Below are positions 7,409 through 64,000 of a DNA stretch of 64,000 nucleotides, one piece after another. A program made the position numbers and the translations under genes. The notes below the pieces were generated by a model. That model was given only the letters and a program-made list of their open reading frames with translations. It was not told the DNA's origin and did no database searches. The stretch spans positions 64,001 to 128,000 of the forward strand of contig CAWDYC010000008.1 of the NCBI GenBank assembly GCA_963806535.1, written 5' to 3'. The stretch is from Candidatus Bathyarchaeota archaeon. GTDB lineage: Archaea; Thermoproteota; Bathyarchaeia; Bathyarchaeales; Bathycorpusculaceae. How positions within the stretch are numbered: the first letter of the stretch is position 1; each line of letters starts with the position of its first letter.

Positions 7409-8161
7409 TTAGGAAGTGTCAAAGGGAGATTTTAAGGCAGTTACAACTTCAACTGGTGAGTCTTCGCCTGATTTTAGCCGTTTCTTCCATTCTTCTCCTA
7501 CAGCGATTAGTGAGAAGATGCCTGAAACTTCAGCCTTCGACTTCTTTACGAGAGTTACGAGTGCTTCTTGTGTTTCGCCGCTTTTAATCATGTCATCTAC
7601 GATTAGGACGCTGTCGCGTTTTTTGATGGCTTCTTTGGGAATGTAGAGTGTTACGGTTACGCCTGAATCTCTTCCTAAAACAAATGTCTCATCGAGGAAG
7701 GCTTTGACGCCGACTTCTTTGTTGCGTTTTGCCACAATAAGGTTAACTCCCAAAGCGTTGGCGACCATGGTGGCTAATGGAATTCCATCAACTGCTGCAG
7801 TTAAAACTTTGGTAACTCTTTTGCCTGCAAAATTTGCTAGTGCATGGTTTGCTGCTTGCTGTAAAATGTTGTAGTCACCGACGATTTCCGTGTTGTCGAA
7901 GTAGCCGATGTCGTCAAATTTTATTCGGCTCCGCAGTTCTGCTTCTAAGCCGACCATTTTGGTGAGGACTCGCCAGAGTTGTTTGGCTCTTGTCGTGTTT
8001 GGTAACACGTGGCCTTTTGCGTATCGGCTAAGTACAGTGACTGGTAATCCTGTTTTTGATGCTAATTCTCGATAAGTAATATTTCGTTTATATTTTGCTG
8101 TTCTTAGCAGTTCGATTGTCATTAAACGAAGTTTCAAATCTTCTGCGTGAGTGCTCATCAA
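7409..8161 (-). CDS. HTH plus phosphoribosyltransferase-domain protein (archaeal Apt/PurR-like regulator)
   Basis: N-terminal HTH TYRELASKTGLPVTVLSRY; PRPP-binding VLIVDDMIKSGET. Confidence 0.82.
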   Translation of the reverse strand: MMSTHAEDLKLRLMTIELLRTAKYKRNITYRELASKTGLPVTVLSRYAKGHVLPNTTRAKQLWRVLTKMVGLEAELRSRIKFDDIGYFDNTEIVGDYNILQQAANHALANFAGKRVTKVLTAAVDGIPLATMVANALGVNLIVAKRNKEVGVKAFLDETFVLGRDSGVTVTLYIPKEAIKKRDSVLIVDDMIKSGETQEALVTLVKKSKAEVSGIFSLIAVGEEWKKRLKSGEDSPVEVVTALKSPFDTS

Positions 8162-8341
8162 TTAACCCTCAATTCACACTTATGTATATTTACTTGTTAT
8201 TGTAGCTTGCCAATTTATAGCTTTCTGATTAAAACAAACAAGGAATAATTGTTGGTCAGAAAGCCTGATTTAGCAACTTTTTCTATTTGTGCATTAAACT
8301 TTTTAGATAGTAAGTGAAGTCCTATATCAAAAGGGGGACTA

Positions 8342-8887
8342 TTGATGCAGAAGCTCAGCCAATTATTCATGACCGCGCTCTTCGGCTCAATCATTTTCGT
8401 AGTCAACGTTTTTCTGCCTCCCCCATTGAACTATGTTTTAATCGTAGTTGAAGCAGTTCTTCTCGCATTAAGCGGATTATTTATCAGTAAATTAGGCGCT
8501 ACCTATGTGGGAGCAGTTGGAGGTCTCTTAACAGCTCTGGGAAATCCAGCTTTGGGCCCTTTCACCTTTTTCTTTACCCTCTTGTTTGGAGTTTTTGTCG
8601 ATGTATTCTTGTTCGTTTTCAAAATCAACGCTTCCCGCGAAGGCGTAAACCGCAACAGACTGATGGCTGCTATGGCTGTGAGCACCATGTTAATTGGGGT
8701 TTTAAGTTACTCGGCTTTTGCGATGTTTCCACAGTTCATTCCTTTTGCGAAGGGCGCAGGCTTATTTATTCAAAGAAGCACGATGCTTGATGCCTTGGTT
8801 TTGTTTATGGGTCCAGCTACTGGCAGTGTAGCAGGCTACGCTGCTTCCTACCTGTGGAACAAATATCTCCGCCATGTACTCATTTAA
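8342..8887 (+). CDS. Integral membrane protein (possible ECF S-component-like)
   Basis: 181 aa with about five hydrophobic segments; divergent from the HTH-PRT gene. Confidence 0.6.
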   Translation: MMQKLSQLFMTALFGSIIFVVNVFLPPPLNYVLIVVEAVLLALSGLFISKLGATYVGAVGGLLTALGNPALGPFTFFFTLLFGVFVDVFLFVFKINASREGVNRNRLMAAMAVSTMLIGVLSYSAFAMFPQFIPFAKGAGLFIQRSTMLDALVLFMGPATGSVAGYAASYLWNKYLRHVLI

Positions 8888-9150
8888 AGAGCTGCTTAAT
8901 TTTCTCGTCAACCAATTTGGCAATCATCAAATTAGAAATAAAAACACACTTAACACCCAAGCAGCTCAGCCAACTCTGCGGGTTTTTGGTCCTGAGTAAC
9001 AAGAATCAAATTGTTTTTTCCAGCGTATTCCACTATATCTCGATCTTTTGCACTTTTCAAACCTGATTCCTGAGCAGTCAGCACTTCGTAGCCTAAGGTT
9101 TCAAAATATTCTTTCAAGCCGGCGTACATTTCGTCAAGTAAAATCTTCAT
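8880..9150 (-). CDS. DUF5615/Mut7-C PIN-like small protein, frameshifted near the C-terminus
   Basis: MKILLDEM...AKDRDIVEYA...ILVTQD motif. Confidence 0.75.
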
Positions 9151-9332
9151 ATCGCTTCGCTACTCATCTTATCTGATTAGAATACTTAGGTTTAACTTAT
9201 GTATAATTGCCAATGGGTCTTTAATTCATAAATCAAAAACAAACCAGAACACAAACAACAAAAATAATGAGAAAAGTGTTAGGTTGGTCAGGCTCTCAAC
9301 GATTTTTACGATTCAAGTTGGTAGCGCCTAGA

Positions 9333-9468
9333 CCTTATTGGACCTTTCCAGACCTTTTTAGACCTTGCCGAACCTTTTAAAACCGCAACCTGCAAAAGAT
9401 TTAAGTTTTATTTCAAAAAAACAGCTCAAAACACAAAAAAAAATTGCACAAAATACCGTCAATAACTG
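9333..9468 (+). repeat. Phased 10-mer/core repeat element, locus 1 (one clear unit; degenerate units possible at ~9208-9270 and ~9506-9580)
   Basis: ccttattgga cctttccaga cctttttaga ccttgccgaa ccttttaaaa, then core ccgcaacctgca-N33-aaaacacaaa...tgcacaaaataccgtcaataactg. Confidence 0.85.
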
Positions 9469-9603
9469 ACTTCACAACTCAGCCTAACTTTATGAAGATT
9501 GTATTGAACCACCTGATCCCTAATAGATCTGATTCAGTTTAATTCAATGTTAATTACACAAAAAATTTTAAAAAGCAACCCGATATACTGTGACCTGAAA
9601 CTA

Positions 9604-11239
9604 ATGATAAACTCTCCAGTTAAACGGTTCATTTTGCCCTTTTCCCCGGAGAAAAGCAATGAACCAATCGCCTCAGAAGTCGAAGCAGCAGCGGTTTACT
9701 GCGCTTGCAGAGTTTGAAAGAAACAAAGGCGGAGGCTTAATCTTAAAACAGCCAGAAGAAAAACTCCATTTTATTGCGGAAATGGGTTATCCACTGTGGC
9801 TTTTTCCAAATAATCTGATTACCTACATTTTTGACGGCTTAAACAATTTCATCTATTCTATTCCTTATGTTGAATTGCCTACTGCAAAAGTTTTCATGGA
9901 GAACCTTGAGGTAAATTCTAAGACGCGGGAAGATTACATGGCTTTCCTCTCAGACAATAATAGTTATTTTCTGCAACCAATAAAAGAGAAAGAGTTCTCT
10001 CTGAGAAGTTTAATTGTTGATTCAGATTTTAAAAAAGAGTTTGATGTCTACCGTAAAGAAGCCAACAGAAGTTATAGGTCAATTTACAAAGATAGCTTTG
10101 CTGCCTCCGTCTCTTCAAGATGCAACAATTTCTTCAATGATATCTGAAATGAACAGTTTACAATCTTCACTTAAAGAAGATGCTGACAGGTTTCCTGAAT
10201 GCCTAAGACGCGTAAACAAAATAACTAGCCAATACATAACCGAGCTGGATTATGCAGCGGAAGCAGTAAAAGATGAAGCCGCAGCTAAAATCAAAGCTCA
10301 AGAAGAAATCATAAATCCACAAATCTTCAAGCTAAACAGCGAATGCAAACGTCAAATAGCAAAGATAACTGCTGACTTTGATGATGAAATAGATAAACTT
10401 GAAAAACTCAAAGCAAAAACATCAAAAATCGTAGACTTTGAAGAAAAAAAGCTCAAACAGTACGAACATAGCAGCAAAAGAACAAGCCGAACAGAACCAT
10501 TCAATTTATGAAAAAAGATGGAAATCAAAAAGTCGCGAAACCAAGAAAGAAATCAATGGACTTAAGAAAAGAGCTAAAGCAAATAGAAAACAACATTAAA
10601 CATTTAATCAAACAGAAAAATGAGAAAATCTCTGCCCTACGGTTTGAACTTGAAACTAATGTAAAGTTGGCTCGCCAACCATTGCTTGATCTTGAAACTG
10701 TATGTGACGCTAAAATGTTGATTTTTAAGCGAGAAACTGAAAAGTTGCTTAGCCGAGAAAAACCAATAGTTGAAGGGTTGAATCGTGCAATTAAATTGGC
10801 TGAAGGAGTCGTCGATGGTTTCCAAATGTTAGGTATTAGAAACCTACAATTGAATGGTCCAACTCTGTTTTATATCCCATTCTATGTTGCTTGTTATCAA
10901 ACCGGATCAGCAAATCGTTATCTTTTTCTGGCACCATCAATGACAAGTTCTGTTGGTTTTGCTGCGAAACTGAAGGGTGTAATGGGTATTTCGAAAATTA
11001 AAGAGATGTTTAATCCACGGTTCAAGGCTATTGCGACTTTTATTAACAAAGTTCAGGTGATAACTAATCAGAATAGTTTGATGGATCAACAAATTGTTGA
11101 TTTGGGTGAAAGAAATAATCTTTTGAAAAATGAGTTGATTCGCGTTAACATAGAAAAGGGATTAGTTTATTTGAAAGATGCAGGATGGCTTTCGGATCGT
11201 GAATATCAATCGTTAACAAATAGGTTAAATCAATATTAA
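9604..11239 (+). CDS. Hypothetical coiled-coil protein, frameshifted
   Basis: Collinear fragments 9659-10147, 10014-10511 and 10508-11239; long K/E-rich heptad region. Confidence 0.7.
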
Positions 11240-17082: not shown

Positions 17083-17149
17083 CGTTGTTATTATGCTTAG
17101 TCAATTATGGTTCTGTTTAATATTTCGGCAGTTTTAAGAAAAAACTTCA

Positions 17150-17745
17150 TGTTCGACATAATCATGTTTTTCTTCATTTTTGTAATTTGTGTTTTGGATT
17201 GCTTTTTTGCTTTGGGTATTGATTCGTTTGCAGGTTGCGTCTTTAAATGTGAGAAAATGTGAGGATCTGTAAAAATCTGTAAAAAAATGTGAGAAAAAGG
17301 AAGAAAAAGGAAGAGATAGGCCGGTCTATTGCTTCCTGGAAGTTGTGACGGTTTTTTGGCAGTGTTTTTTCTTTGTGTTTTGAGCTTCTTTTTTGTTTCA
17401 AAGCTTGATTTCTCTGCAGGCTGCGTCTTTATCCCTCTCTACCCGCCTCCCTCCGTCTGTGTCCGTCTCCTTGTGTCCCAAAGGGCTATTGACAGATTTT
17501 TTGGCAGGGATTTTTCTTTGCGTTTTAGATTGCTTTTTTGTTTTGGGGCTTAGTTTGGTTGCAGGTTGATACATTTTTTGACAATATTTGACATTTAGAA
17601 GTTTAGGTCTAGCTAGAAAGAGAAGTTTTAGAAAATGTTTTCAACGTAAAAAACATCAGTTTGTTTTGAGTTGTTTTTTTGAAATAAAACTTAAATCTTC
17701 TACAGGTCGTGTCTAGATTCGTCCCAAAAAGTCCCAAAATGCTTA
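17150..17745 (-). repeat. Phased 10-mer/core repeat array, locus 2 (four units)
   Basis: On + strand TGCAGG/TACAGG starts at 17229, 17415, 17560 and 17701, each exactly 33 bp from a GTTTT box; unit-specific 10-bp repeat runs in between. Confidence 0.9.
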
Positions 17746-34870: not shown

Positions 34871-34951
34871 TTATTCTTCGTCTTCGCAGTCTTCACAGTC
34901 GCAGTCGTCTTCGCAGTCTTCGTCTTCTTCTTCAAATCTGTACAATACCAT
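34871..34951 (-). CDS. Putative 26-aa acidic Cys-rich micropeptide (not in ORF track)
   Basis: MVLYRFEEEDEDCEDDCDCEDCEDEE*; CTTATA box ~40 bp upstream; T-rich terminator-like tract downstream. Confidence 0.6.
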   Translation of the reverse strand: MVLYRFEEEDEDCEDDCDCEDCEDEE

Positions 34952-46207: not shown

Positions 46208-46360
46208 ATTGACGCTTGCTCCGCTAAAGTTTTTGATCTTTGATGTTTAAATAGTCTATGCTTTTGTCTTTTAACACAAAAACGAAAAGAAGAAAAACTC
46301 AAAAACAAAGAAATCAAGTTAAACAAAAAAATAAAGAAATAAGAAAATTTTGAGGTGATT

Positions 46361-63348: not shown

Positions 63349-63693
63349 CCTTTTCTGTTATTTTTCATACTTTTCTAACCTTTTTCGCACGTTTCTGTTC
63401 TTTTCCATTCATTTCTGTTCTTTTCTAACCTTTTCTTTACGTGACCTGCAAACACTGCAAGCCCTAAATCAAAAAAGCAACCTAAAACACAAAGATAAAA
63501 TTTCTGCACAAAAACCCGTCAATAACTGTTCCTCTAATGACACTTTCGGAACGCAAAGAAACGCAATACAACGGGAATAAACGCATTTCAACGGGGAACA
63601 ACGGGAAAAAACGCAACTTGCAAACGCAGCAAACCCTGAACAGAAGAAACAACTTAAAACACAAATAACAGAATTTGTATCTTTTGAATTGTC
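63349..63693 (+). repeat. Phased 10-mer/core repeat array, locus 3 (two units)
   Basis: Nine nCTTTTCTnn-type 10-mers, core at 63439 (acgtgacctgca-N33-aaaacacaaa...ccgtcaataactg), six ACGSRnnnnA 10-mers, core at 63611 (acgcaacttgca-N33-aaaacacaaa). Confidence 0.9.
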
Positions 63694-63766: not shown

Positions 63767-64000
63767 ATGGATTACGCGGTTATAGCTGAAGCCTACGAGA
63801 AAATTGAAGCGACATCAAAAAGGCTAGAAATGACCGATCTGCTAGTAGACCTGCTTAAGAAAACGCCTAAAGAGGTCATGGCTAAGGTGGTTTATTTGAC
63901 GCAGGGTAAATTGTACCCAGACTTTATGGGCGTGGAGATGGGCATTGCTGAAAAATTAGCAATAAAAGCCTTAGCCCGAGCATCTGGACAAAGTGAAAGC
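63767..64000 (+). CDS. lig: ATP-dependent DNA ligase, N-terminus (runs off the window; not in ORF track)
   Basis: MDYAVIAEAYEKIEATSKRLEMTDLLVDLL...VVYLTQGKLYPDFMGVEMGIAEKL. Confidence 0.9.
   Translation, partial: MDYAVIAEAYEKIEATSKRLEMTDLLVDLLKKTPKEVMAKVVYLTQGKLYPDFMGVEMGIAEKLAIKALARASGQSES

What the first reader, a model, noticed from the sequence alone, without database searches (positions are those of the whole stretch)
17241..17742. Unit-specific 10-bp microrepeat spacers in phase with the core, with near-invariant C at position 2
Seen in sequence: each core is preceded by a run of degenerate 10-mers in exact register with its first 10 bases, and each run has its own consensus. Read on the - strand, one run is cctatctctt cctttttctt cctttttctc acattttttt acagattttt acagatcctc acattttctc acatttaaag | acgcaacctg. 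Others are acacaaggag acggacacag acggagggag gcgggtagag agggataaag | acgcagcctg; tcaaatattg tcaaaaaatg | tatcaacctg; and gcattttggg actttttggg acgaatctag | acacgacctg. Across all three loci, 37 of the 39 10-mers I delimited by eye have C at position 2, in runs ranging from T-rich to G-rich. Neighbouring 10-mers resemble each other more than distant ones. Inference: this repeat-plus-variable-spacer layout could come from iterative, polarised addition or duplication of 10-nt units next to the core. Alternatively it could reflect a protein filament reading one face of the helix. Ordinary microsatellite slippage would not explain one period and phase shared by unrelated consensus sequences.
Basis: partly seen in the sequence, partly recalled or inferred. 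Interest (0 to 1): 0.88.

Follow-up and report, generated by a model that had tools for sequence, protein, structure and literature searches.

The report
Archaeal repeat element with 10-bp comb
A short non-coding repeat scattered about a hundred times through an uncultured soil archaeon's genome always carries a run of 10-base units with a fixed C once per DNA turn, an apparently undescribed design that probably lines a protein up along one face of the helix.

Summary
The "core" is a ~60-90 nt A/C-rich dispersed repeat beginning ACGCAACCTGCAAAC. The 2.95-Mb genome, a Bathyarchaeia relative, holds 102 copies.

- **Comb:** upstream C frequency is 0.95, 0.83, 0.76, 0.73, 0.66 and 0.60 at -9 to -59, against a background of 0.20. 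Autocorrelation peaks only at lags 10, 20 and 30.
- **Exclusivity:** an unanchored scan finds 23 period-10 arrays. 22 abut a core and the 23rd abuts a degenerate one. No arrays exist at periods 7-9, 11 or 13-15.
- **Constraint:** 10-mer positions 2, 6 and 10 change 2-4 times less often than the other positions.
- **Arrangement:** units are intergenic and random in orientation to genes, but 34 of 34 neighbouring units are head-to-tail.
- **Distribution:** copy number varies patchily among species, and the architecture recurs in another family of the order.

Best reading: a new MITE/BOX-like modular repeat whose internal 10-bp minisatellite changes by whole units and keeps phased contact bases for an unidentified DNA-binding protein. 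Polarised enzymatic addition is not supported: no gradient, no reverse transcriptase. Function and partner remain unknown.

The parts
17241..17320 (-). 10-mer run of unit A (8 units, CCTTTTTCTT to ACATTTAAAG flavour)
   Evidence: 8 of 8 units have C at position 2
17155..17240 (-). Core of unit A (ACGCAACCTGCAAAC...). Its 3' part is replaced by sequence shared with the orthologous unit in L011.
   Evidence: nhmmer (E 6.3e-10)
17427..17476 (-). 10-mer run of unit B (5 units, G-rich ACGGAGGGAG flavour)
   Evidence: 4 of 5 units have C at position 2
17344..17426 (-). Core of unit B
   Evidence: nhmmer (E 1.7e-12); covariance-model match
17572..17591 (-). 10-mer run of unit C (2 units, TCAAAAAATG flavour). 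The core also starts with T.
17486..17571 (-). Core of unit C, ending in GTCAATAG
   Evidence: nhmmer (E 1.2e-12)
17713..17742 (-). 10-mer run of unit D (3 units)
17629..17712 (-). Core of unit D (diverged: ACACGACCTGTAGAAG...)
   Evidence: nhmmer (E 6.1e-12)
9333..9382 (+). 10-mer run (5 units, CCTTTCCAGA flavour). The core also starts with CC.
9383..9465 (+). Core, ending in CCGTCAATAAC. It lies at a synteny break relative to relatives.
63349..63438 (+). 10-mer run (9 units, ACTTTTCTGT / TCTTTTCCAT flavour)
   Evidence: 8 of 9 units have C at position 2
63439..63525 (+). Core (ACGTGACCTGCAAAC... to CCGTCAATAAC)
   Evidence: nhmmer (best hit, E 3.1e-15)
63551..63610 (+). 10-mer run (6 units, ACGCAAAGAA / ACGGGAAAAA flavour, which resembles the start of the core)
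63611..63688 (+). Core, 157 nt upstream of the ATG at 63768, which I read by eye as an ATP-dependent DNA ligase (not searched)
17083..17130 (-). Context, not part of the element. The ancestral promoter-like stretch GCCGAAATATTAAACAG of the IF-2B-family gene is kept just downstream of the array.
   Evidence: the same stretch directly follows the upstream gene in relatives that lack the element. Pfam IF-2B.

Best explanation
This is one family of short, non-coding, dispersed repeat modules in a group of Bathyarchaeia.

ANATOMY. A unit has three parts:
- in some subfamilies, a ~40-nt left motif;
- a run of 2-12 ten-base units, most often 6-8;
- an unstructured A/C-rich core whose first 14 nt and two inner blocks are conserved.

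ORIGIN AND TURNOVER OF THE RUN. The run is an internal minisatellite. It descends from one ancestral array next to the core. It gains and loses whole 10-bp units and is homogenised within each array. That explains both the array-specific flavours and the common period and phase.

WHAT IS KEPT, AND THE INFERRED MECHANISM. Against this turnover, three positions are retained on one strand: C at position 2, T at position 6 and G/T at position 10. Together these form a G-A-C cluster plus a T-tract half a turn away. The inferred mechanism is that copies of a DNA-binding protein sit head-to-tail once per helical turn on one face of the DNA. Binding would be nucleated at, or ending at, the conserved core start. 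This is the geometry used by winged-helix or ribbon-helix-helix proteins on direct repeats.

SPREAD. The modules spread, or once spread, as whole units into intergenic DNA, and always head-to-tail when they lie next to one another. They act as substrates for genome rearrangement.

SHOWN: the family, the comb, its exclusive link to cores, the positional constraint, unit-wise length change, head-to-tail arrays, insertion polymorphism, taxonomic spread, and the absence of coding capacity or RNA structure.
INFERRED: protein binding, and mobility by an enzyme.
UNKNOWN: the protein and the benefit, if any.
For: 1. FAMILY AND COMB. There are 102 copies with an exact 10.0-bp C comb.
2. EXCLUSIVITY. 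22 of 23 period-10 arrays in the genome abut a core, and no arrays exist at neighbouring periods.
3. CONSTRAINT. In 418 same-flavour pairs, the mismatch rate is 0.10 at position 2, 0.19 at position 6 and 0.18 at position 10, against 0.30-0.43 elsewhere. Among the 36 distinct array consensus 10-mers taken from the 64 arrays with at least 4 uninterrupted C2 units (so C2 is given by construction), T6 is present in 86%. The comb is strand-polar: C is .73-.95 and G is .01-.09 at -9 to -39.
4. UNIT-WISE CHANGE. Internal gap lengths in the run region peak at 10 (52, against 11 at length 9 and 8 at length 11), at 20 (8) and at 30 (4). Subfamily copies carry 5 to 9 units of otherwise the same series.
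5. HOMOGENISATION. Identity is 5.4-5.5 of 9 within arrays and 3.31 of 9 between arrays. Position 1 of the core follows position 1 of its units: T in 7 of 7, C in 6 of 8 and A in 48 of 73.
6. DISPERSED, MOBILE-LIKE BEHAVIOUR.
- The 74 clusters are intergenic, with orientation to the flanking genes 29/20/12/12 and no strand or GC-skew bias.
- Only 1 of 80 orthologous IF-2B loci carries a unit at the orthologous site, whereas G000 has four there.
- An orthologous site is empty in G016.
- Element sites coincide with synteny breaks.
- Copy number ranges from 0 to about 58 among species of the genus.
7. HEAD-TO-TAIL. 34 of 34 neighbour pairs within 1 kb are head-to-tail.
8. DEEP CONSERVATION. In-phase xC T-rich 10-mers plus the CAAAAAAGCAACC.AAAAC block also occur in G174, in another genus (G189, G192) and in another family (G030, G093).
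9. NOT AN RNA GENE OR CODING. Rfam finds nothing. The 56-sequence alignment yields 0 consensus pairs. Fold z-scores are -0.98 and +1.67. A 10-nt period cannot be coding.
Against: - No binding protein or mobilising enzyme was found. There is no multicopy transposase. The ends of the three IS200 copies are unrelated hairpins. Two tyrosine recombinases and the LysW-like ORF are not co-distributed with element-rich genomes.
- No terminal inverted repeats or target-site duplications could be shown. The 3' boundary is heterogeneous: +62/67, +77, +89 and +102.
- A protein that reads only about 3 of 10 bases per site would have low specificity.
- Some flavours lack the T-tract (ACGGAGGGAG, ACGCAAAGAA).
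- The strong strand asymmetry in base composition (core A .49, C .25, T .15, G .11) is not needed for a double-strand binder. It hints at a single-strand or RNA-level role.
- Mismatch rates among paralogous copies are not independent observations.
Confidence: 0.5

Rival explanations
1. Neutral minisatellite. The runs are only slippage products of a 10-bp unit that once arose beside the core. Period and phase are inherited, flavours arise by drift and homogenisation, and the C has no function.
For: - Gap lengths peak at 10, 20 and 30.
- Arrays are homogeneous internally.
- There is no gradient and no partner enzyme.
- The AC/TC/CC at the core start behaves like a last partial unit of the array.
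Against: - C2 stays at .95-.60 across arrays whose other positions differ completely.
- Its mismatch rate is 3-4 times lower than that of neighbouring positions.
- The same C2 and T-tract are kept in other genera and another family.
- One copy in G013 that has T in place of C throughout also has a decayed core start.
Confidence: 0.15
2. Portable transcription terminator or insulator. As RNA, the T-rich 10-mers (sense direction) and the T-runs of the core's complement (antisense direction) stop archaeal RNA polymerase in both directions. Insertions between genes would therefore be tolerated or even useful.
For: - Runs of T>=5 per 170-nt element number 1.5 on the sense strand and 2.03 on the antisense strand, against 0.73 per strand in 1000 intergenic controls.
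- 71 of 102 elements have such runs on both strands, against 215 of 1000 controls.
- Elements fill intergenic spacers of all three kinds, convergent ones included.
- Archaeal termination relies on U-tracts read by RNA polymerase and aCPSF1/FttA (passages read in PMC13675443).
Against: - Termination needs no exact 10-nt phase and no fixed C.
- Flavours without T-tracts exist.
- The conserved 14-nt core start is not explained.
- No expression data are available.
Confidence: 0.15
3. Chromatin element. The phased T-tract and G/C pattern makes curved DNA that positions archaeal histone oligomers or another nucleoid protein. The array length of 60-80 bp matches a histone tetramer or a little more.
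For: - The genome has 2 histone-fold and 4 Alba genes.
- 331 of 468 10-mers hold a run of at least 4 A/T, and 206 hold T>=4.
- Array length is most often 6-8 units.
- Ten-base nucleosome-positioning motifs have been discussed for Archaea (PMC3691935; search listing and start of abstract only).
Against: - Histone or curvature signals are not strand-polar, yet here C is never replaced by G on the same strand.
- The pyrimidine/purine pattern is not a clean YYYYYRRRRR.
- G-rich and A-rich flavours exist.
Confidence: 0.12
4. Polarised, enzyme-driven addition of 10-nt units at the core, in a telomerase-, CRISPR-adaptation- or target-duplication-like manner.
For: - One flavour (ACGCAAAGAA, ACGCAGAACA) looks like repeated copies of the first 6 nt of the core, in G000 and in relatives.
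- Runs lie on one side of the core only.
- Arrays of units are strictly head-to-tail.
Against: - There is no proximal-distal gradient.
- The order of the 10-mers is conserved between dispersed copies of a subfamily.
- Unit gains and losses are not confined to the proximal end.
- No reverse transcriptase was found, and no co-distributed recombinase.
Confidence: 0.05
5. Small-RNA or promoter cassette. The last 10-mer supplies a TATA-like box, the core is transcribed, and the next run terminates it.
For: - The proximal 10-mer is all A/T at -8 to -2 and richer in A than the distal ones.
- ACATTTAAAG resembles the TATA boxes upstream of this genome's tRNA genes.
- A21/A22 of the core are more than 90% conserved, at the distance expected for a start site.
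Against: - There is no A-rich BRE upstream, unlike the tRNA promoters.
- Many flavours have no TATA-like last unit.
- There is no common terminator after single units.
- There is no RNA structure or Rfam match.
- Orientation towards the downstream gene is near random: 41 same against 33 opposite.
Confidence: 0.08

Closest known systems
BOX elements of Streptococcus pneumoniae (modular boxA-boxB(n)-boxC intergenic repeats; recalled, not checked in a call)
   Same: - Short, non-coding, dispersed intergenic modules of about 100 copies.
- An inner sub-unit is repeated a variable number of times between conserved parts.
- No linked transposase gene.
   Different: - The inner unit here is 10 bp, exactly one helical turn, rather than 45 nt.
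- It has a fixed C and array-specific flavours.
- There is no stem-forming structure.
- The host is archaeal.
MITEs and REP/BIME-type repeats (recalled)
   Same: - Small, non-coding and multicopy, with patchy copy number among species.
- Presence/absence polymorphism at orthologous sites.
- Found at rearrangement break points.
   Different: - No terminal inverted repeats, target duplications or palindromes were shown.
- No related autonomous element was found.
- Arrays are strictly head-to-tail.
Direct-repeat protein-binding arrays: plasmid parC centromeres bound by ParR, OmpR/PhoB boxes, arm-type sites of lambda-type integrases (recalled)
   Same: - Tandem 10-11-bp direct repeats in helical phase beside a functional core site.
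- A few conserved bases per repeat plus an A/T-rich half-turn.
- 3-10 repeats.
   Different: - Those arrays are single loci with one repeat consensus and a known cognate protein.
- Here there are about 100 dispersed loci and dozens of flavours, and no protein is known.
Tandem 10-bp 'strong nucleosome' or nucleosome-positioning sequences (Trifonov group; PMC3691935 seen only as search listing and abstract start)
   Same: Runs of about 10-bp units with alternating pyrimidine/A-T and G/C segments, in an organism with histones.
   Different: The signal here is strand-polar, has a single invariant base, and is tied to a specific repeat core.

Membership tests
MITE (miniature inverted-repeat transposable element) | Terminal inverted repeats | tested here: inconclusive
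   A left motif T[TA]A[AG].GG..A, a weak inverted match to the right end GTCAATAAC, is found in only 7 of 102 copies. That is above the 0.015 expected per 160 nt, i.e. about 1.6 expected among 102 copies.
MITE (miniature inverted-repeat transposable element) | Target-site duplication at filled versus empty sites | tested here: inconclusive
   The empty site in G016 is too diverged to place the boundaries. The 3' ends of copies are heterogeneous.
MITE (miniature inverted-repeat transposable element) | A related autonomous element with a transposase in the same or related genomes | tested here: not met
   No multicopy transposase was found apart from IS200 x3, whose ends are unrelated hairpins. 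No reverse transcriptase was found. Only G000 was examined in full.
MITE (miniature inverted-repeat transposable element) | Small, non-coding, multicopy, with insertion polymorphism | tested here: met
   102 copies of about 120-220 bp. Only 1 of 80 orthologous loci carries a unit at the site. Copy number is 0 to about 58 among species.
REP/BIME | Imperfect palindrome forming a stem-loop, with a RAYT (Y1) transposase partner | tested here: not met
   There are no consensus pairs and fold z-scores are -0.98 and +1.67. The only Y1 genes belong to ordinary IS200 copies.
BOX-like modular repeat | Conserved end modules with a variable number of an inner sub-unit | tested here: met
   There are 2-12 inner 10-mers between an optional left motif and the core. 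Length changes occur in steps of 10. This is a likeness of design only; there is no sequence relation.
CRISPR array | Identical repeats of 25-40 bp separated by unique spacers of similar length, plus cas genes and a leader | tested here: not met
   The units are 106-247 bp apart. The 'spacers' are themselves 10-bp repeats shared between loci. The cores are 75-90% alike, not identical. Cas genes were not searched.
Iteron or centromere-like protein-binding array | Tandem direct repeats in helical phase with conserved contact bases | tested here: met
   The period is exactly 10.0 bp. Positions 2, 6 and 10 are constrained.
Iteron or centromere-like protein-binding array | A cognate binding protein, usually encoded nearby | tested here: not met
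   No recurrent neighbouring gene was found. The LysW-like ORF is present in 12 of 61 genomes and is missing from element-rich G016. Binding itself cannot be tested with these tools.
Structured non-coding RNA gene | Conserved secondary structure or a match to a known family | tested here: not met

The most novel reading that the evidence does not exclude
The 10-bp comb is a landing track for a directional protein filament, or for archaeal histone or Alba oligomers. The filament is nucleated at the conserved core start. These elements would then be portable chromatin or insulator modules of an archaeal genome. The array 'flavours' would act as addresses for different paralogous binders. The strict head-to-tail order would reflect a site- and orientation-specific insertion mechanism of a kind not yet described.
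Probability: 0.15. Interest if true: 0.85.

Novelty: new variant of a known kind. Interest (0 to 1): 0.62.

Why it matters
- **New for this lineage.** Bathyarchaeia are abundant and mostly uncultured, and their non-coding DNA is essentially unexplored. Four full-text searches for such repeats in this group or in archaea found nothing that describes them.
- **A natural mutagenesis experiment.** Dozens of independently drifting arrays keep only three positions per helical turn. That gives a precise, testable recognition code for an unknown DNA-binding protein.
- **Practical consequences.** The elements mark synteny breaks and contig ends. They therefore matter for assembly and for genome evolution in this group.
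- **If they are insulators, terminators or chromatin-positioning modules,** they would be a new kind of portable regulatory DNA in archaea.

Tried and rejected
- **RNA evidence.** The look-up of sequencing runs listed 3 DNA runs with small shares of the words (0.05-0.07) and no RNA holder. Read laying was therefore not used, and nothing can be said on expression.
- **Viral origin.** The 15-mer core start matched 80 viral contigs, but 0 of those 80 loci hold a real core by nhmmer. blastn of one unit found no match in the phage or plasmid collections.
- **Strain-level comparison of the window array.** The 80 genome loci and 80 metagenome loci around the IF-2B gene reach at most 92% protein identity. 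Cores were found in 4 of 80 and 1 of 80 loci, and only L011 has one at the orthologous site. Gain or loss of 10-mers between strains could not be read.
- **Target-site duplication.** The alignment of the filled site (G000) with the empty site (G016) was too diverged.
- **tRNA association.** 4 of 39 tRNA genes have a unit within 600 nt, so there is no clear link.
- **Partner proteins.** Representatives of the 10 largest multicopy protein clusters are surface proteins, kinases, glycosyltransferases, TFB, RAM-domain proteins and the like. Reverse transcriptase is absent. The IS200 ends are unrelated. Recombinase L302 has close orthologues in element-free genomes. Recombinase L307 is present in only 3 of 61 genomes. 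The LysW-like ORF is present in 12 of 61.
- **Orientation bias.** There is none relative to genes, regional coding strand or GC skew.
- **Conserved position.** There is no element upstream of the L7Ae gene in G000, although G030 has one there.
- **Sub-threshold Rfam search.** It gave only a chance hit with E 0.39.
- **Pairwise gap analysis.** One search is noisy, because short spurious gaps abound. Only the peaks at 10, 20 and 30 are used.
- **Single 19-mer hits in genus g16 of family f7.** These lack the comb and look like chance or coding matches. They are not counted as elements.
Full report
WHAT IS THERE

On the - strand of window 17155-17742 lie four head-to-tail units. Each unit is a run of 10-base units followed, in exact register, by an A/C-rich core that begins ACGCAACCTGCAAAC or a close variant. 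Three more units lie at 9333-9465 (+), 63349-63525 (+) and 63551-63688 (+). By my delimitation, 36 of 38 window 10-mers have C at position 2. Tandem Repeats Finder independently reports period-10 rows at these places.

GENOME-WIDE CHECK

The window is contig C8:64001-128000 of a 2.95-Mb, 12-contig genome with about 41% G+C. A profile of the seven window cores finds 102 copies with E<1e-3.

- Anchored on the core start, C frequency is .95.83.76.73.66.60.44 and .30 at -9 to -79, against a background of .20. G at -9 to -59 is only .01-.09. The picture is unchanged in 88 non-redundant copies.
- Without anchoring, identity at lags 10/20/30 is .477/.432/.414. At lags 2-35 that are not multiples of 10 it is .27-.32 (lag 1 .36), and it is about .27 in 1000 intergenic controls. 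Lags 9 and 11 show nothing.
- A scan of the whole genome for any period found 23 period-10 arrays. 22 have a core abutting on the correct side, and the last has a degenerate core. Periods 7, 8, 9, 11, 13, 14 and 15 gave no arrays, and period 12 gave 3.

ANATOMY OF THE UNIT

- **Core.** The consensus is ACGCAACCTGCAAAcaAatcAA.CccTaAA.CAAAAAAGCAACctAAAACACAAAGAACAAAa, often followed by ..CTGC.CAAAAAACCGTCAATAAC. The sense strand is A .49, C .25, T .15, G .11.
- **No RNA gene signal.** The 56-sequence alignment has no consensus secondary structure. Whole units fold no better than shuffles, with z-scores of -0.98 and +1.67. Rfam finds nothing.
- **Run length.** Runs have 0-12 units, most often 6-8.
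- **Array consensus.** Each array has its own consensus. I took the 64 arrays with at least 4 uninterrupted C2 units, so C2 is fixed by construction. They gave 36 distinct consensus 10-mers, which share T6 (86%), T4 (67%), T5 (61%) and A1 (58%).
- **Positional constraint.** In 418 pairs of copies of the same flavour, mismatch rates are 0.10 at position 2, 0.19 at position 6 and 0.18 at position 10. Elsewhere they are 0.30-0.43.
- **Start of the core follows the array.** The first base of the core tracks the first base of its 10-mers: T in 7 of 7, C in 6 of 8 and A in 48 of 73. The xC at the core start thus behaves as a last partial unit of the array.
- **Left motif.** Some subfamilies carry an extra left motif of the form ..TTGAAAGT..AC....GTTAATGGCAAC...

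HOW THE RUNS CHANGE

Copies of one subfamily at different loci carry the same 10-mers in the same order but in different numbers, for example 5 to 9 units in the CCTTTTTCTT to ACATTTAAAG series. Gap lengths between such copies peak at 10 (52, against 11 at length 9 and 8 at length 11), at 20 and at 30 in the run. The core shows no such peaks.

Similarity to the core's first 10 nt does not fall with distance. Similarity between units hardly depends on their separation: 5.54, 5.42, 5.54, 5.44 and 4.97 of 9. It is well above the 3.31 of 9 seen between arrays.

This is the signature of a minisatellite with whole-unit gain and loss and within-array homogenisation. It is not the signature of polar addition at the core.

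GENOMIC BEHAVIOUR

- **Clusters and orientation.** The 102 copies form 74 clusters: 52 single, 17 double, 4 triple and 1 quadruple. All are intergenic by a crude ORF map. Relative to the flanking genes they are co-oriented with both in 29, opposed to both in 20, in divergent spacers in 12 and in convergent spacers in 12. There is no bias towards the regional coding strand or GC skew.
- **Head-to-tail rule.** All 34 of 34 neighbour pairs within 1 kb are head-to-tail, spaced 106-247 nt, with three at about 497 nt. Neighbours usually belong to different flavours that also occur elsewhere.
- **The window array is an insertion.** It lies between an Nre gene and an IF-2B-family gene. In 79 of 80 orthologous loci from related genomes no unit lies upstream of the IF-2B-family gene (3 of these hold cores elsewhere in the locus). 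In most of the close relatives I read (L013-L017, L037, L053), the IF-2B promoter-like stretch follows the upstream gene directly. L011 has one or two units of another flavour. G000 keeps the same promoter-like stretch just downstream of its four units.
- **Rearrangement.** At other sites the left and right flanks of G000 elements lie far apart or inverted in relatives, with element copies at the break points. One site is empty in G016.
- **Other.** An IS200 copy has inserted into one element. One contig stretch (C10, 0-76 kb) carries a unit about every 3 kb.

WHO HAS IT

Titles of the records that hold the closest relatives of the neighbouring gene name Candidatus Bathyarchaeia/Bathyarchaeota MAGs.

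- The core-start 15-mer with up to 1 mismatch occurs in 17 of 24 other species of the genus that were searched. It occurs in 1 of 16 genomes of other families, against 0-1 control hits.
- Exact 13-mer counts are 28 (G000), 20, 20, 12 and 7 in the richest genomes, and 0-4 in most others.
- The inner 19-mer with up to 1 mismatch is found in 62 of 301 genomes of the order. That is 31 of 56 in the genus (up to 58 copies) and 10 of 16 in a second genus, and it is sporadic elsewhere. Control hits occur in 7 genomes, with 1-2 hits each.
- A sequence-only covariance model gave matches in 11 of 151 genomes.
- The diverged copies in G174, in a second genus (G189, G192) and in another family (G030, G093) again have in-phase xC T-rich 10-mers directly before the core. 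An example is TCTTTTCCCA TCTTTTAGTA TCTTTTCCTA....
- Single hits in genus g16 lack the comb and are not counted.

The architecture is therefore old and conserved, while copy number is patchy and burst-like.

WHAT IT MOST LIKELY IS

The data fit a family of non-autonomous, MITE/BOX-like modular repeats with an internal 10-bp minisatellite. Period and phase are explained by common descent plus unit-wise turnover.

What needs a further cause is the retention, on one strand and once per helical turn, of a G/T-A-C cluster and a T-tract half a turn away. On B-DNA, a major-groove contact and the minor groove 5 bp away face the same side. This is the pattern used by proteins that bind direct repeats head-to-tail, such as winged-helix response regulators and ribbon-helix-helix centromere binders. 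That comparison rests on established knowledge and is recalled here, not tested.

I therefore infer phased binding of a protein along one face, starting from or ending at the conserved core start. I rate this mechanism at about 0.4-0.5. The repeat-family description itself is secure.

The strict head-to-tail order points to orientation-specific insertion beside existing units, or to tandem duplication. I could not tell which.

RIVALS

- **Purely neutral minisatellite (0.15).** It explains everything but the constraint at positions 2, 6 and 10.
- **Bidirectional terminator or insulator (0.15).** It is supported by the excess of T>=5 runs on both strands (71 of 102 elements against 215 of 1000 controls) and by what is known of archaeal U-tract termination (PMC13675443, passages read). 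It does not need a 10-nt phase.
- **Histone or curvature role (0.12).** It is compatible with the histone and Alba genes and with array length, but not with the strand polarity.
- **Polar enzymatic addition (0.05).** It lacks a gradient and an enzyme.
- **Promoter or sRNA cassette (0.08).** It fits only some flavours and lacks a BRE.

PARTNER SEARCH

No partner was found.

- Representatives of the 10 largest multicopy protein clusters of G000 are not transposases, and the only transposase seen among multicopy genes is IS200.
- Reverse transcriptase was not found.
- The two tyrosine recombinases that were tested are not co-distributed with element-rich genomes.
- A LysW-like zinc-ribbon ORF sits inside a 0.8-kb composite bracketed by elements. 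It occurs in 12 of 61 genomes and is missing from element-rich G016.
- The element is not in the viral, phage or plasmid collections that were searched.

NOVELTY

Full-text searches for Bathyarchaeota or Bathyarchaeia with intergenic repeats, MITEs or mobile elements, and for 10-bp repeats in archaea, returned no paper describing this element. For some searches only listings were read. Supplements were not available and subscription journals are not covered.

In kind, it is a dispersed intergenic repeat, which is a known kind. The helical-phase comb with a single invariant base, the flavours and the head-to-tail rule make it a new variant.

Limits: there are no expression data, no strain-level comparisons, and no protein.

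Noticed in passing
L323:713-901 (-) = G000 C4:413712-413900; copies also on C5 and C11, with partial copies on C6 and C8: A 63-aa LysW-like zinc-ribbon ORF (Pfam Zn_ribbon_LysW 26.7 bits, cut-off 27) lies inside a ~0.8-kb composite repeat bracketed by three elements. G000 has 3 full and 2 partial copies besides a canonical LysW-like gene on C3. The ORF also lies beside elements in G013.
   Followed up: partly
L308, L309, L310 (G000 C3:355938-356300, C4:112617-112979, C8:17991-18353): Three identical copies of a ~0.55-kb IS200-type element (Y1 transposase) with hairpin ends. The C4 copy has inserted into, and truncated, one of the repeat cores.
   Followed up: yes
L317 and L320 (genomes G030 and G093, another family of the order), about 70-150 nt after the core start: In these genomes the element is followed by repeated G-run units of the form TTAGGGGGGG TCTAGAGAGAGAC. 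This is a second, unexplained repeat.
   Followed up: no
window 8000-11000 and G000 C8:147620-150620, C4:544059-547059 (L279, L276): The left and right flanks of element sites lie tens of kb apart or inverted in related genomes (G013, G003), with element copies at the break points. The repeats mark rearrangement sites, and many contigs of G013 end in them.
   Followed up: partly
G000 C4 about 414160-414185 (L323 about 1161-1186, - strand): A tRNA 3'-end-like fragment (GGTTCAAATCC...CCACC) lies directly upstream of an element. ARAGORN does not call it as a tRNA.
   Followed up: no
G000 C10:1-76000 (L286-L289): There is an unusually dense stretch of about 25 units, roughly one per 3 kb. They are all on the + strand up to about 46 kb and all on the - strand from 51 kb, following the local gene orientation.
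   Followed up: partly
G000 C3 and C4: The genome encodes 2 histone-fold proteins and 4 Alba paralogues. It also has several TFB paralogues and five stand-alone Lrp/AsnC ligand-domain (RAM) genes among its multicopy families.
   Followed up: no
window 34875-34927 and 46303-46346: Other short tandem repeats (periods 9/15 and 8) were reported by Tandem Repeats Finder. They are unrelated to the cores and were not examined.
   Followed up: no
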